From positions 1,268,858-1,332,857 of the forward strand of contig CM000434.1 in assembly GCA_000165345.1 (NCBI GenBank): 64,000 nt of DNA, given 5' to 3'. Below are positions 3,001-9,000 of this stretch, one piece after another; the stretch's first letter is position 1, and each line of letters opens with the position of its first letter. Position numbers: made by a program.

Positions 3001-6000
3001 TCACGATCCTTCTTAGAATAATGTGGAAGTCTTAGACCAGCTACAATGTCCATTGTCTCTTTAATTGTTAGATAAGGAAGTAAGTAATCATCTTGTACCA
3101 CCATTCTAGTCAAATACCCTAAATCTATATCAGTAAATCCATTAATAGCCACGGAACCCTTAATATTATATTCTCTCCCTTTGAGTCTTCCAGAAAGAGC
3201 ATTCAGTAATGTTGACTTTCCTGATCCAGAAGGGCCCATAATTCCAATAAGTTGTCCTGGAGAAGCCATAAAATTCACGCTCTTTAGGATTGGAACCACC
3301 TTTTTACGGAAAAACTTATCACGTTTGGTGAGTTCAACTGTCAAGTTTTTTGCTACCAATGTTACTTGTTTTGAAACATTCATTCCCAAATTTATATTGA
3401 TTGACATGTCCATTGAATGGTCTGTAACTGAGCACCTAACAGCTGCAGCACTTGATCCACCTTTAGCGTCATAAGAAGATTGATCTCCACCACCTTTGCT
3501 ACTATTTAAGTCCAAGTTATTTCCTCCTACTGTTAATCCATTGTCCTTAATCTCAACGGAAGACTTTTTGCTGGGGTTTTTGGGGTCGTCAAAGCTAAAT
3601 TTAGCTACAACCAAATTTACTACCAAAAAAGTTAACAAAAAGTTGACTCGCCTAGCTAGAACTTACCATCATTGTTGTTACTCATCCTAAATATTAATTT
3701 TTAAAGACAAAATCAGAATTTTTATCTTCCTATTATTAATGAGCGAAGTATCAGCATGAGGGGTAAATCCAAATCTTAGATTTAAGAGGGGAGAGGCGCT
3801 TCACAGATAAACAAAAAAAAAATTAATTCAAGAACGAACTTGAATAGCTCCAAATTATCTAGAAAACATAAATTAATTTTTCTAAAACAATCTTATCTCT
3901 TTCAATTTCCATGCCTAACAGGATTATTTTTCTATATATTTACCTACTCCCTCTATTTCGTCATCGCACACAAACTGAATATAAACTCACTTGAACCAAA
4001 TTAGTTCTTAATTATTAACTAACTCTAAATTAATTCAAAACCCATTTTACCTGATAAAATCAATGGTGCCATTAGATATACCGGCCATAAAAAACATGCA
4101 TGCATGCAACAATAGGACCGCAAGAACGCGCCAACTTGTGGATCTATTAATAAGAGATGGCCATTTTGAAATTTGTTCAAGAAAATTGGGAAATTACTAC
4201 CAGGTTTGCTATTAATAGAAGAGTTTAAACTAATTTTAAGTTGGAAATGCATGGTGCTTAGAACTAGGTTCAAGTGAAAACGAAAAGTAACAATATGAAG
4301 CTGCTAATAAGGCTTGCAGTTTTACTTGGAATATTAGTGGGAGTGTATACAAATGAATTGAATGATGATATTGTAAAAGAAATTAATTTGGATCAATCTT
4401 ATTTGAAGTCAGTTATTGACATTGTTATGGACCAGTATTATTTCATGTACTATCATCAGGGAAGAAGAGGAGGAAAAGGAAAGTGGTCAAATGGAATAGG
4501 TGGTCTACCATCTCCAAGAATAGCAAAAAAATATATAATGACATTCGTTCAGAGTGATCCTGAGGATAATTTATTTGGAGGTATTAGTTTGAAATTTTAT
4601 ATACGAATGTGTACAAACCTAATAAATCATTTCCCCAGATTGCACCATGGAGTTGGAGGAGGTATCTTAATTGCAATCCATTCCTATCAGGAAGAAGAAT
4701 ATACCATAGTAAGAGGATTTTGTACAGAGGCAGGAATGATGCATTTCTTTAAAAAAGAAATGGAAAGTTTGATTCGGGAATCTTCTAAGCCAAATTCTTT
4801 GATCCCTCCCTTGAATAAATCAATTTTTGATCAGTATAATGTTGGAGGAAATTGGGACGATTTTGTAGAGAATTGTGAAGATCTGATTAAAGAATTTAAA
4901 GAAATAAACATTAAGAGAGACAGTTCTAGCAAATGGTCAAAGATTGATTTCTCAGAAATTTCTGACTTTTGTGAAGAAGTTTCTGATGATATTTATCCAA
5001 ACTTCAGTCAAAGTCAAAAGGAATGGAATCATATTTATGCTCTACAAAACTACATTATTGAAAGGAAAGGAGAAATGAGAGCTCCAATCATTGGTATTCC
5101 TTCCAAGAAACCTGATTACTATGTTGCTGGAAGGCATCAATCATCAATGTATAGAAAATGTCTAAGAGCATTATGGGATATGTTTCAATATGATGATGAA
5201 ATTAACTTAAAAATTGCTGGAATTAATCAATATGAAACTCTTAGAAGCTTTTGCAATGCTGCTAAAAATTACTATACCAGAAATGGCAGGATTTCTGCGT
5301 ATCCAATGATTAATATTGGAGATCCTCCGAGAAAAAGAAAGTTACCTACTGATGAAGATGGTTTGGTGAAACAGATTTTGGAGAAACAAAGAAATAAAGA
5401 GCTCAAAGAAAAATTATTAACTATGCAAATGAGGAATAAATTTGAAAAACTCCAGGAAGAGAAGATCAAAAGAAGAAGAGAAATTAGGAAGAACATCAAA
5501 AAATCAAAGGTCATGCCAACCACTGCCGATTTCCCCCTGGAAGGAATTCTATCCCCTAAAGAAAATTCTTCTCCTGAAGAGATTCAAGATACTATAAACA
5601 TTCTCAATGAACTTCCTAGCACAAGTTTTAAAGAAGATGGTCTTCTTGAGCCACAACCAAATATTTCCACAATTGAAAAAAACTCCGAAAGCAATGAAGA
5701 ATTGGACAACTTTGGATTAGAAGCTGCTAATGAAGAGTTTAATAAATTATTATAAATAATATGTAGTATAAATAGTATATATTAAGAAAATTAGTATAAT
5801 TAAACCCCCTTCTTTTTCATTATTATTCATTATAGCATTAGATTGCATGCCGAAATTTTGGCGCGAAGATCTTTATTTACATTTACAGTCTTTCAGAGAT
5901 GTGTATTTTAGAATCTTAACCTTAGAAATATTTATATTAAAAATATTACTGATAAATAGTTTAATTTAATAAGATCCCATGGGTAAGTTTGTTTGGCTTT

Positions 6001-9000
6001 CATAAATAAGACGAATAACCAAACTAATTAATTTAATTTAAAGATCCACAATTCAGGTTTAATCTTAGGCCAGTGATTCAGAATAGAAATAATTCAGGTA
6101 CTCCAAAAGTATTTATTAGAAGTACAAGTACAGGAAATAATGTTCAAGGTATTTCTAAAACACCAATAGTTCCTTACAGACAAATGTATGGAACCAATTT
6201 TAATGACCTCCAAGGAGTATATTCAATGGTTTCTCCCCTTCAAAGTTTTAGAACACCTCGATTGGAGAATCAAAACCACAATAATTTTTTTCCTGAAAAT
6301 AAAAATTACCTACAAATTAATACTGAGAGACTAATTCATTCAAGTAAAAATTTTATAGATGATTCTAAAATACTAACATATAGGTCAGGATCTTTTATAC
6401 AAGCTAATTCTCAAGGGTACAAACCAAATGAAACACTCCAAAGCACAAACTATTCAGACAACACAACTGTTTCTGAAAGTCAACTTTCTTCAAACCAATT
6501 TTTTGAATCAGAGAATGATAGTTTCATTTCGCAGAATGTAAAACCAAGCAAGAATTTAGTCAATAATGCTACTAATACCTTAGATAACAAATCTGAAAAT
6601 GAATTAAAACAACTAATTGATGACCCAAAAGATCTTTCTTCCACAAAAATTGAAAATAAAACAGATAATCGTATAGAACTAGATTTGAAAATCCCAAAAA
6701 ATATTTCATTGGAAGAAATCTGTGAAACTGAACAATTTGACTATTTTCCTCAACTTATTAATGAAGTAAATGAAAAAATAGATATGGAAGAAATAGAATA
6801 TAATACTGAAGATATAAATCATAACTTTGACAAGGAGTCAATTATATCCTCAAGCGATACTCAAGGATGTATGGAAATATGTATCACTCCTCCCTTATCA
6901 TCAGAACTAATTACATCTAACAATTTTTATTTCCCAGAAGATAACAAAGAAGAGAGTCAGAATGGTTCAATTTTAAGAACAAATAAAGATTTTTGTGAAG
7001 AATTTACAGATATAGAAACTCATAAAAATGATATTCTGGAGAATCAGAATATTTTAAGAGAGAATGGAAAAAGAAAATTCAGATTTTCATCGCTTTGTCC
7101 TAAACTGCTCAACTGTCTATTTCCATGGATACGTTCTGAACAATATTTTGAAGATCACGACCAACCAATTTTCTATATCACATCAAATAACGAAGAATCT
7201 CAAAAACTAACAAATAACTAGAAGATATGTACTTAGTCTCCATGTTATTTTTTTTGTTGTCTTAAAATTCTTTTTTCTTTTAATTTATATTACATGTAAC
7301 TCTATCCTATTTGGCGGTAAATTCTTTTTTAATTTTGACATGTTAGTTTTAATCCAAAAATTTCAAAAAAAACTTCAATAAAAATATATATATGGAAAAC
7401 AATGAACCCAATAAATAACTGGAGGGTTTGGGTTTTAATTTATTTCTATATTCACTATTTATTACTTAATACTATTGATTGCACATTCAATTTTAAAGAT
7501 AGTGAATCAGAATACTCTGCCAACTTTTCAGAAAAGTCACAAATTGACTCGAGAAAGTTTTCATTATTATTATATACAATAATTTCCCAAGTATTAACTG
7601 AAATTAATAGCTTAGATTCTGAAAATTTGGTAGAATATTCGAAGAATTTGAAGAATTTTAGTAAATTTATTATTCAAGATTTTGATAATTGTGAAAAAAT
7701 CTTAATTGACGAAATTCCATCTTTATACCTACCATTCATAACTAGTCCTAATATTGAACATGGTCATAGTATTGCTTACGAGGTTTGTTGTAGGCTTAGA
7801 AGTACCATTTCTGCAGATTCTGAACTAACTGCTTTGCTTGGTAATTCAACCAAATATTTAGATTATGAAGACTATGTGAAAACCTCTATGGAAGCTATCA
7901 ACAAATTTGATGGTTCATCAGATGTTCCATCTTCTACTACAGGACTTATTTATAGTACAACGCTTGATAATCATAAAGGAATCACTGGAAAGAAGTCTAA
8001 ACTTAGAAATTTGCCCTACGAGGATGATATTAATTCTAAGGATGAAGTAATAGATTCCAATTCAGATGGCTTGATCTTTAGTTTTGATGTTAAAGCAGCT
8101 CCATTTATGAATTCCAATACTCAACAATATATATATACTTATTACCACCATTCAGATAACTCTAAGTGTTTAGGTTTGACCAAAAAACAACTGGAAATGG
8201 TTGAATCTATTCAAAAAGTATCTGTTAATGCTAAGGATGTCCCAAGAATACCATTAGACATAGCATGCACAGCAATGTGGTTTATTTCTCAAAGGTGGGA
8301 TTTTTGTCCTTTAGTATTCAAGCAATTAATGCAAATAAAACGATCCTCATCTATCAAATTTTGTGAAACTGTTAAACAAACAGCTACTGAAAGAACTAAA
8401 TTTATTACTAAAACATTGAAAATTTCTGATTCTTTTTTGACAATGAGAGCAGTAAAAATTCTAAACTATGTGGAAACTGTATTAAAACTCAATTCCAAAT
8501 ATTTTCCAGACTCTGAAATAACTTCTAAAGATATTGCTGATATTATTTACAAAGGTGATAGTGATATTTTTGTTGAAGAAAATAATAATACAATTTTTAA
8601 GGAACTTAGAAGAAATAGAACTGAGAGAAAGTTTAATACAAATAAAGAGCTTCCCAAAAGTAATATATTAGGACTTAGATATCCAAATTATAGAAGAGAT
8701 AGACATAATTTCACAAGTATATTTGACCATATAATGTATTCCGAAAATCATTCAAAAGATGATGAAGGGGAAAATCTACTATTGCTTCCCTTAGAATTCA
8801 AAAGATCTCCAAATTGGACATCCGATAATCATCTTGGTAGTAACTCTAAAGAGGTTGTTTCTTCTAAAACTGTTCTCCAAACTCATTATATTCCTCCTCC
8901 TTCAAGTTTCATTCCAAATGATGTTTCAAACTGGATCACTGGTCCATGCTGTTGGCTCGATGATAAATTTAAGCATTTACCTTCTTTAATCATTTCGATT

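What the first reader, a model, noticed from the sequence alone, without database searches (positions are those of the whole stretch)
3605..6043. Micro first exons: two neighbouring genes appear to start with an ATG-bearing exon of 19 nt and 4 nt followed by a 62-nt GTAAGT intron
The long ORFs are open 75 codons (ABCG at 1314..3638) and 49 codons (6073..7221) upstream of their first internal ATG. That much open frame is unlikely by chance in 70% AT DNA. In each case an upstream ATG is followed immediately by GTAAGT and a phase-correct acceptor. The models are ATG AGT AAC AAC AAT GAT G|gtaagt and ATG G|gtaagtttg, each with a 62-nt intron. Such tiny first coding exons are easy for gene finders to miss, and would change the predicted N-termini.
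Basis: inference. Interest (0 to 1): 0.5.

Follow-up and report, generated by a model that had tools for sequence, protein, structure and literature searches.

The report
Known tiny first exons, Cryptosporidium genes

Summary
The window is the right end of Cryptosporidium parvum chromosome 6, with a TTTAGG telomere at its end. The two ORFs have ATG-less open leaders of 83 and 49 codons, while every other long ORF in the window has 22 or fewer.

Both proposed spliced proteins already exist letter for letter in GenBank: 769 aa for the ABCG transporter and 393 aa for the cgd6_5370-type gene. The original 2004-era models started at internal ATGs or had no start.

Orthologous loci from 9-11 Cryptosporidium species conserve the micro-exons, donors, intron positions and phase. 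The leaders evolve mainly at third codon positions.

Two corrections:
- The gene B intron is 61 nt (5983-6043), not 62.
- Gene A has two phase-compatible acceptors. An AG 15 nt upstream (47-nt intron, 774 aa, adding VNLVV) occurs in 11 of 11. The 15 nt between them behave as coding sequence. The RNA-seq-supported IOWA-ATCC annotation uses the 47-nt intron.

Verdict: real, ordinary and already known. The only residue is a curation conflict over one acceptor.

The parts
3667..3685 (-). Gene A (ABCG half-transporter, inferred cgd6_5350 type) coding exon 1: ATGAGTAACAACAATGATG, 19 nt, phase 1, encoding MSNNND plus the first base of the next codon
   Evidence: Sequence read. Exon 1 is 19 nt in 10 of 11 species (22 nt in C. 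muris), with synonymous AGT/AGC, AAC/AAT and GAT/GAC changes. It starts all current spliced GenBank models. An in-frame stop lies 6 codons upstream (read).
3620..3666 (-). Gene A intron, preferred model: 47 nt, GTAAGT...TGTTAAC-N...TTTTTTGGTAG, acceptor AG at 3621/3620
   Evidence: This AG is present in 11 of 11 species, and intron length varies from 41 to 68 nt in steps that are not multiples of 3. The model gives the 774-aa protein found as CAD98346.1, QOY41420.1 and WRK33141.1. A TTAAC branch-like motif lies 12 nt before the AG, the spacing I read in the consensus-annotated 50-nt intron at 12010..11961 (sequence; model matched).
3605..3619 (-). Contested 15 nt, TAAATTTGGTTGTAG.
Evidence: The length is fixed at 15 nt in all 11 species. 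Excluding C. muris, the variable columns by codon position are 1/1/5.
1314..3604 (-). Gene A, the rest of exon 2 through the stop codon: conserved N-terminal leader, ABC_tran NBD, then ABC2_membrane TMD
   Evidence: ORF. Pfam places ABC_tran at residues 118-269 and ABC2_membrane at 494-713 of the 774-aa form. The leader shows a third-position substitution bias, e.g. 9/6/40 against C. felis.
5845..5868 (+). Likely promoter elements of gene B: GCATGC (5845-5850) and the E2F-like TTTTGGCGCGAA (5857-5868), about 110 nt upstream of the ATG
   Evidence: The GGCGC(G/A)AAGATCT core (TTTTGGCGCGAAGATCT in C. parvum) is present upstream of the ATG in all 9 species examined. It resembles the published C. 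parvum E2F-like motif TTTGGCGGGAAV and the AP2_1 motif GCATGCA (PMC3734150). Function was not tested.
5979..5982 (+). Gene B (cgd6_5370 type, uncharacterised protein) coding exon 1: ATGG, 4 nt, phase 1
   Evidence: ATGG|GTAAGT is conserved in C. bovis, C. ryanae, C. canis, chipmunk genotype and Logan14. C. meleagridis has a GTGAGT donor, C. ubiquitum has ATGA, and C. muris has a 19-nt exon 1 at the same intron position. An in-frame TAA lies 3 codons upstream of the ATG (read).
5983..6043 (+). Gene B intron: 61 nt, GTAAGTTTG...ACTAAT...TTTAAAG
   Evidence: Length. Orthologous introns are 55-64 nt at the same position and phase. The splice gives the 393-aa protein deposited as QOY41422.1, WKS78653.1 and WRK33143.1.
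6044..7221 (+). Gene B exon 2 through the stop codon, beginning (G)AT CCA CAA TTC = DPQF
   Evidence: The leader DPQFR(F/L)NLRPV...TP(K/R)(V/I)F(I/V)RSTS is conserved, with a third-position bias in the closer species. The internal ATG at 6184 used by the old 345-aa model is Ile, Val, Leu or another residue, never Met, in the seven other species in the alignment.

Best explanation
The window is the right end of Cryptosporidium parvum chromosome 6. Both genes are ordinary two-exon genes in which a short U2-type GT-AG intron sits just after the start codon.

**Gene B.** It is transcribed from a promoter carrying GCATGC and E2F-like elements about 110 nt upstream (inferred). Its mRNA is spliced from ATGG|GTAAGT (5982|5983) to AG|ATCC (6043|6044), removing 61 nt. 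The product is a 393-aa protein starting MDPQFRFNLRPV.

**Gene A.** This is an ABCG-type half transporter. It is spliced from ...GATG|GTAAGT (3667|3666) most likely to the first AG after a TTAAC branch-like motif (3620|3619), removing 47 nt. The product is a 774-aa protein starting MSNNNDVNLVVAKFSF.

It lies 15 nt further on. It exists because a Val codon is GTA followed by G in the C. parvum group. It is at best a minor or alternative site.

**Shown and inferred.** Sequence signals, phase, conservation, coding signatures and identity to deposited models are shown here. Actual splicing rests on published RNA-seq-based annotation, and promoter use is inferred.
For: **Identity.** A TTTAGG telomere array lies at 62048-63922. 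There are exact protein matches to C. parvum records.

**Exact matches of the spliced models.** Gene B 393 aa and gene A 769 and 774 aa are all deposited.

**Gene A comparative evidence**
- Exon 1 length and a GTAAGT or GTGAGT donor are conserved in 11 of 11 species.
- The 15-nt segment has fixed length and encodes VNLVV or VRLVV. Excluding C. muris, all five third positions vary but only 1 of 5 first and 1 of 5 second positions do.
- Leader substitutions at codon positions 1/2/3 against C. parvum are 7/11/37 for C. canis, 9/6/40 for C. felis and 7/7/45 for Logan14.

**Gene B comparative evidence**
- Intron position and phase are conserved in 9 of 9 species, with lengths of 55-64 nt.
- The leader peptide is conserved and the internal ATG is not.

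**Chance controls.**

**Local comparators.** A third gene at 14058..~11750 (minus strand) has GTAAGT introns of 62 and 50 nt, and its spliced 736-aa product matches four annotation sets exactly. Reading its 50-nt intron, a TTAAC motif lies 12 nt before the AG.

**Literature**
- IOWA-ATCC introns are reported as '100% supported by RNA-seq', and 524 N-termini were repaired (PMC8744675).
- RNA-seq reannotation raised intron-bearing genes from 4.3% to 10.8%, with mean intron length 84-99 nt (PMC4637869).
Against: - No transcript reads could be examined here, so splicing itself is not shown by my own analysis.
I could not see what evidence they rest on.
- The upstream AG lies only about 12 nt from the presumed branch A, which in some organisms is close enough for an AG to be skipped.
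- In C. muris the homologous 15 nt (TTCCTCTTCCACTAG) look like a polypyrimidine tract plus AG, so the downstream site may be the real one in that species.
- Branch points are inferred from motif resemblance only.
Confidence: 0.8

Rival explanations
1. The reader's exact model for gene A is the main isoform: donor at 3666, acceptor AG at 3606/3605, a 62-nt intron and a 769-aa protein lacking VNLVV.
For: - It is phase-correct and leaves an open frame.
- It is deposited as KAL5368415.1, WKS78651.1 and C. hominis KAL3127889.1.
- The upstream AG sits only about 12 nt after the TTAAC motif, so it might be bypassed.
Against: - This AG is absent in C. ubiquitum, C. canis, C. felis, Logan14, C. bovis and C. 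ryanae, which must therefore use the upstream AG.
- The 15 nt show a coding signature.
- They are preceded by TAAATTTGGTTG, a poor pyrimidine tract, whereas TTTTTTGG precedes the upstream AG.
- The three supporting records are probably not independent. The HLJ annotation was transferred from IOWA-43IA8 (PMC12092579).
- IOWA-ATCC uses 47 nt (QOY41420.1) and, by my inference, so does BGF (WRK33141.1).
Confidence: 0.15
2. Both gene A acceptors are used in the C. parvum group. Tandem 3' splice sites 15 nt apart would give isoforms with and without VNLVV.
For: - Both are in phase and both are deposited by different groups.
- The downstream AG is confined to the C. parvum, C. meleagridis, chipmunk and Logan15 group, and separately C. 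muris. That fits a recently created competing site.
Against: No transcript data were examined. The disagreement between annotations may simply reflect gene-finder choices.
Confidence: 0.2
3. There are no introns. Translation starts at the internal ATGs (3413 for A, 6184 for B), as in the original annotations, and the upstream open frame is chance or relic.
For: Old records use these starts: XP_627855.1 at 345 aa, and the C. hominis and C. tyzzeri 699-aa and 344/345-aa models.
Against: - The leaders are conserved as protein with third-position substitution bias out to C. bovis and C. muris.
- Gene B's internal ATG is not conserved in other species.
- Open leaders of this length are improbable by chance.
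- The micro-exon, donor and acceptor are conserved genus-wide.
Confidence: 0.02
4. Gene B is not a separate gene but a downstream exon of the upstream same-strand gene (4274..5755). This is the 2003 fused model CAD98347.1 (713 aa, ...EAANEEFN|LRPVIQ...).
For: The fused model is deposited. The two genes share a strand and lie about 220 nt apart.
Against: - The fusion drops the conserved DPQFRF peptide.
- It ignores the conserved ATGG|GTAAGT and the conserved GGCGC(G/A)AAGATCT core of the E2F-like element in the gap.
- All later C. parvum annotations listed keep the genes separate.
Confidence: 0.02

Closest known systems
Current C. parvum gene models for this locus: CPATCC_003126 (QOY41420.1, 774 aa) and CPATCC_0016980 / cpbgf_6005370 (QOY41422.1, WRK33143.1, 393 aa)
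   Same: Gene A has the same exon 1 and donor.
IOWA-43IA8 / HLJ / C. hominis CHM models of the ABC transporter (WKS78651.1, KAL5368415.1, KAL3127889.1, 769 aa)
   Same: C. hominis KAL3127889.1 has the same 769-aa splice structure and N-terminus.
   Different: They conflict with the other annotation lineage and with the comparative evidence gathered here.
Start-codon-proximal short spliceosomal introns of intron-poor eukaryotes, such as those found by RNA-seq reannotation of Cryptosporidium
   Same: Short GT-AG introns with a GTAAGT donor at the extreme 5' end of the coding region, missed by early gene finders. RNA-seq reannotation raised intron-bearing genes from 4.3% to 10.8% (PMC4637869). 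A later reannotation repaired 524 N-termini (PMC8744675).
   Different: Nothing unusual. The 47-62 nt lengths are somewhat below the reported mean of 84-99 nt but match the neighbouring 50- and 62-nt introns.
ABCG (white/WBC-type) half transporters
   Same: One nucleotide-binding domain lies N-terminal to one ABC-2 membrane domain.
   Different: A roughly 117-residue N-terminal leader is conserved within the genus. No function is known for it and none was tested.

Membership tests
U2-type GT-AG spliceosomal intron | A 5' splice site starting with GT and matching the extended consensus | tested here: met
   GTAAGT at 3666..3661 (minus strand) and 5983..5988 (plus strand). The orthologous donor is GTAAGT, or GTGAGT in Logan15 for gene A and C. 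meleagridis for gene B.
U2-type GT-AG spliceosomal intron | A 3' splice site AG that restores the downstream reading frame | tested here: met
   Gene B: AG at 6042/6043. Gene A: two in-phase AGs, at 3621/3620 and 3606/3605.
U2-type GT-AG spliceosomal intron | A branch-point motif a short distance upstream of the AG | tested here: inconclusive
   YTRAY-like motifs were found: TTAAC 12 nt before the upstream AG of gene A, and CTAAT/TTAAT in gene B. The scan was a simple regex that missed CTTAC-type motifs, which I read by eye. There is no experimental branch mapping.
U2-type GT-AG spliceosomal intron | Intron position and phase conserved in orthologues while intron length and sequence drift | tested here: met
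   Gene A: 11 species, lengths 41-68 nt. Gene B: 9 species, lengths 55-64 nt. Phase is 1 in all.
U2-type GT-AG spliceosomal intron | Spliced transcripts observed | not testable with these tools
   No read data are available here. The literature states that IOWA-ATCC introns are 100% RNA-seq supported (PMC8744675), and that annotation carries the 47-nt intron for A and the 61-nt intron for B.
ABCG half transporter | An ABC_tran nucleotide-binding domain N-terminal to an ABC-2 type membrane domain in one polypeptide | tested here: met
   PF00005 at residues 118-269 (E = 9.5e-25) and PF01061 at residues 494-713 (E = 6e-37), both above the curated cut-offs.
ABCG half transporter | Transport activity and substrate | not testable with these tools
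   No experimental data were found. A literature search for the gene identifiers returned one unrelated mention.

The most novel reading that the evidence does not exclude
In the C. parvum / C. hominis / C. meleagridis group, a synonymous Val codon change (GTG to GTA before G) created a second in-phase AG 15 nt into exon 2 of the ABCG gene. The gene would then make two isoforms, with and without the conserved hydrophobic pentapeptide VNLVV. The two conflicting public annotations would each capture one real isoform.
Probability: 0.2. Interest if true: 0.2.

Novelty: already known. Interest (0 to 1): 0.1.

Why it matters
The practical value is in curation.

- Truncated or start-less N-termini persist for these genes in public records. 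The affected species include C. hominis, C. tyzzeri, C. felis, C. ubiquitum and C. canis, and the original Iowa II annotation is also affected.
- Two current C. parvum annotation lineages disagree by five residues at the ABC transporter N-terminus.
- Anyone tagging these proteins at the N-terminus, raising antibodies or designing knock-ins needs the right start and junction.

Biologically these are ordinary 5'-proximal short introns, with no new mechanism.

Tried and rejected
- **First coordinates for gene B.** My first attempt was off by one base. I corrected it, and that is how the 61-nt length emerged.
- **First shuffle test for gene A.** It used a misaligned frame end and found no real model. 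I redid it.
- **Search for transcript-derived protein fragments.** I queried the first 123 residues of the 774-aa form, hoping for RNA-seq assembly ORFs that start MSNNND. Eight candidates came back and none scored. The full-length clusters contain no spliced ORFs from read-archive assemblies, only unspliced ones starting MLTFLVV or MIQNRNN.
- **Supplementary tables.** Those of the two annotation papers are not held as text. A literature search for the gene identifiers gave one unrelated paper.
- **Attribution of the 769-aa model.** I first assumed it was the BGF annotation. I rejected that after finding that WKS accessions carry the organism name 'Cryptosporidium sp. 43IA8'. That WRK accessions are BGF is inference by elimination.
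- **A 91-nt intron for gene B** (acceptor at 6072/6073) is in phase. I rejected it because it would delete the conserved DPQFRFNLRP peptide.
- **The last ATG of gene A exon 1 as the start** puts both acceptors out of frame or straight into a stop.
- **A Pfam call with wrong coordinates** for the middle gene failed and I did not repeat it.
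Full report
**What the window is**

The last 2 kb are a noisy (TTTAGG)n array at 62048-63922. The proteins encoded here match Cryptosporidium parvum records exactly. The window is therefore the right end of C. parvum chromosome 6. Gene B carries the tag cpbgf_6005370, that is cgd6_5370. From gene order, the ABC transporter two genes upstream is inferred to be the cgd6_5350 type.

**Checking the observation**

On the minus strand, ATGAGTAACAACAATGATG occupies 3685..3667 and is followed by GTAAGT at 3666..3661. On the plus strand, ATGG occupies 5979..5982, GTAAGT starts at 5983 and the AG is at 6042/6043. 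That intron is 61 nt, not 62.

The frames are open and ATG-less for 83 codons in gene A (stop at 3665, first ATG at 3413). In gene B the figure is 49 codons (stop at 6034, first ATG at 6184).

These features are beyond chance:
- At the local base composition such runs have probabilities of about 0.0002 and 0.007.
- Among complete long ORFs in the window these two are the only outliers; the others have 22 ATG-less leader codons or fewer. An ORF cut by the window edge (77) and an antisense shadow ORF with no ATG are left aside.
- An ATG / GTAAGT / in-phase AG arrangement appeared in about 1% of shuffled upstream regions for each gene.

**Already annotated**

| Gene | Model | Records |
|---|---|---|

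- XP_627855.1 (cgd6_5370) is 345 aa and starts at the internal ATG.
- XP_001388358.1 is a 782-aa 'partial' ABC transporter with no Met.
- The C. hominis and C. tyzzeri models are 699 aa and 344-345 aa.
- A 2003 model, CAD98347.1, fuses gene B to the upstream gene.

Published reannotations describe this class of repair. RNA-seq raised intron-bearing genes from 4.3% to 10.8% (PMC4637869). The IOWA-ATCC reannotation repaired 524 N-termini and reports its introns as 100% RNA-seq supported (PMC8744675).

**A second model for gene A**

Other records carry a 774-aa protein starting MSNNNDVNLVVAKFSF. They are CAD98346.1, QOY41420.1 (CPATCC_003126), WRK33141.1, two C. hominis records, two C. meleagridis records, chipmunk genotype I and C. 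canis. This model uses the same exon 1 and donor but an AG at 3621/3620, a 47-nt intron. Both acceptors are in phase.

**Comparative test**

I fetched the syntenic locus from ten other taxa: C. muris, C. bovis, C. ryanae, C. canis, C. felis, C. ubiquitum, C. meleagridis, chipmunk genotype I and two unnamed read-archive assemblies.

Gene A results:
- Exon 1 is 19 nt in ten taxa and 22 nt in C. muris. Its changes are synonymous or conservative: MSNNND, MSSNSD, MSGSND, MSENND, MSENSD, MSKNND.
- The donor is GTAAGT, or GTGAGT once.
- The upstream AG is present in 11 of 11 taxa.
It is GG, TG or CG in C. ubiquitum, C. canis, C. felis, Logan14, C. bovis and C. ryanae, so those species must use the upstream site.
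- The 15 nt between the two AGs never change length and encode VNLVV or VRLVV (VPLPL in C. muris). Excluding C. muris, all five third codon positions vary but only one first and one second position do.
- The intron proper varies from 41 to 68 nt.

The whole leader down to the internal ATG evolves as coding sequence. Differences from C. parvum at codon positions 1/2/3 are 7/11/37 for C. canis, 9/6/40 for C. felis and 13/10/47 for C. bovis. A block, GGDQSSYDAKGGSSAAAVRCSVTD, is nearly invariant.

A TTAAC motif lies 12 nt before the upstream AG. Reading the 50-nt intron of a neighbouring gene gives the same spacing. That gene's spliced 736-aa product is agreed by four annotation sets.

I conclude that exon 1 and the donor are right.

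By elimination the BGF annotation is the WRK accession series and so carries the 774-aa form. That step is inference.

Two caveats remain. I could not examine reads. In C. muris the 15 nt look like a pyrimidine tract followed by AG.

**Gene B**

ATGG|GTAAGT and AG|ATCCA are conserved across the other taxa, with these variants:
- C. ubiquitum has ATGA.
- C. meleagridis has a GTGAGT donor.
- C. muris has a 19-nt exon 1 at the same position and phase.

Introns are 55-64 nt. The leader DPQFR(F/L)NLRPV...TP(K/R)(V/I)F(I/V)RSTS is conserved, with a third-position bias in the closer species. The internal Met of the old model is Ile, Val, Leu or another residue, never Met, in the seven other species aligned.

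An in-frame stop lies three codons upstream of the ATG, so exon 1 cannot be extended.

About 110 nt upstream lie GCATGC and TTTTGGCGCGAAGATCT. The GGCGC(G/A)AAGATCT core is conserved in all nine taxa. The elements resemble the published AP2_1 and E2F-like promoter motifs of C. parvum (PMC3734150). This fits an independent promoter for gene B and argues against the old fused model. An alternative 91-nt intron would delete the conserved peptide.

**Mechanism**

These are ordinary short spliceosomal introns at the extreme 5' end of the coding region. This placement is typical of intron-poor genomes (established knowledge, not tested here). Their only consequence is the correct start codon and N-terminal leader.

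Gene A is a reverse-topology ABCG half transporter, with the NBD at residues 118-269 and the ABC-2 membrane domain at 494-713. Gene B has no Pfam domain.

**Verdict**

The feature is already known and annotated.

The one open point is which gene A acceptor is used, or whether both are. Junction-read counts would settle it. A search for transcript-derived protein fragments found nothing, and supplementary tables were unavailable.

Noticed in passing
window 11750-14058, minus strand: A third intron-containing gene. GTAAGT introns of 62 nt (12447..12386) and 50 nt (12010..11961) join three ORF pieces into a 736-aa signal-peptide protein. It matches QOY41424.1 (CPATCC_0017000), WKS78655.1, WRK33145.1 and KAL5368419.1 exactly. 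The first acceptor is a tandem TATAG|GAG, where a 65-nt intron is also in frame. The C. hominis orthologues are one residue shorter (735 aa).
   Followed up: partly
window 32000-62000: An AT-rich subtelomeric zone with few genes (GC 16-28% in 2-kb windows, against 28-37% further in). Long ORFs are sparse. Among them are two tandem paralogues ending ...NINMEDLE (50033-50722 and 51249-51953, 77% identical), which look like MEDLE-family proteins. An M16 insulinase-like peptidase lies at 57891-59603 (minus strand), next to a 490-aa ORF at 56234-57706.
   Followed up: partly
window 62048-64000: The telomere array is about 1.9 kb of degenerate TTTAGG repeats (82% matches, 12% indels), which looks like long-read noise. 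The last 35 nt or so (GGGCTCCTAGGGGCGGTTTCTTTTGACATAAG) are not telomeric and may be an assembly or adapter remnant.
   Followed up: no
window 5845-5868; the same element in L001, L002, L003, L005, L006, L007, L009 and L010: GCATGC plus TTTTGGCGCGAAGATCT lie upstream of gene B. The GGCGC(G/A)AAGATCT core recurs in all nine Cryptosporidium taxa examined. The elements resemble the published AP2_1 and E2F-like promoter motifs.
   Followed up: partly
L003 1486-2853 (C. canis); L004 230-2467 (C. felis); L005 5001-7238 (C. ubiquitum): Public orthologue models still have doubtful N-termini. The C. canis gene B model (455 aa) starts upstream and reads through the E2F-like element and the intron. The C. 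felis and C. ubiquitum ABC transporters (745 aa) start at an internal Met although exon 1, the donor and the acceptor are intact upstream.
   Followed up: partly
window 3755-3757 (minus strand) and 5892-5912 (plus strand): Short upstream ORFs lie between the likely promoter regions and the annotated starts: ATGCTGATA... (11 codons) before gene A and ATGTGTATTTTAGAATCTTAA (6 codons) before gene B. They matter only if transcription starts upstream of them, which is unknown.
   Followed up: no
L001 5001-5110 (C. muris): In C. muris the first AG of the ABC transporter intron lies only about 7 nt after a GTAAC motif. The next 15 nt (TTCCTCTTCCACTAG) form a pyrimidine tract ending in an in-phase AG. 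The deposited C. muris model (VPLPLANFRF) may therefore use the wrong acceptor.
   Followed up: no
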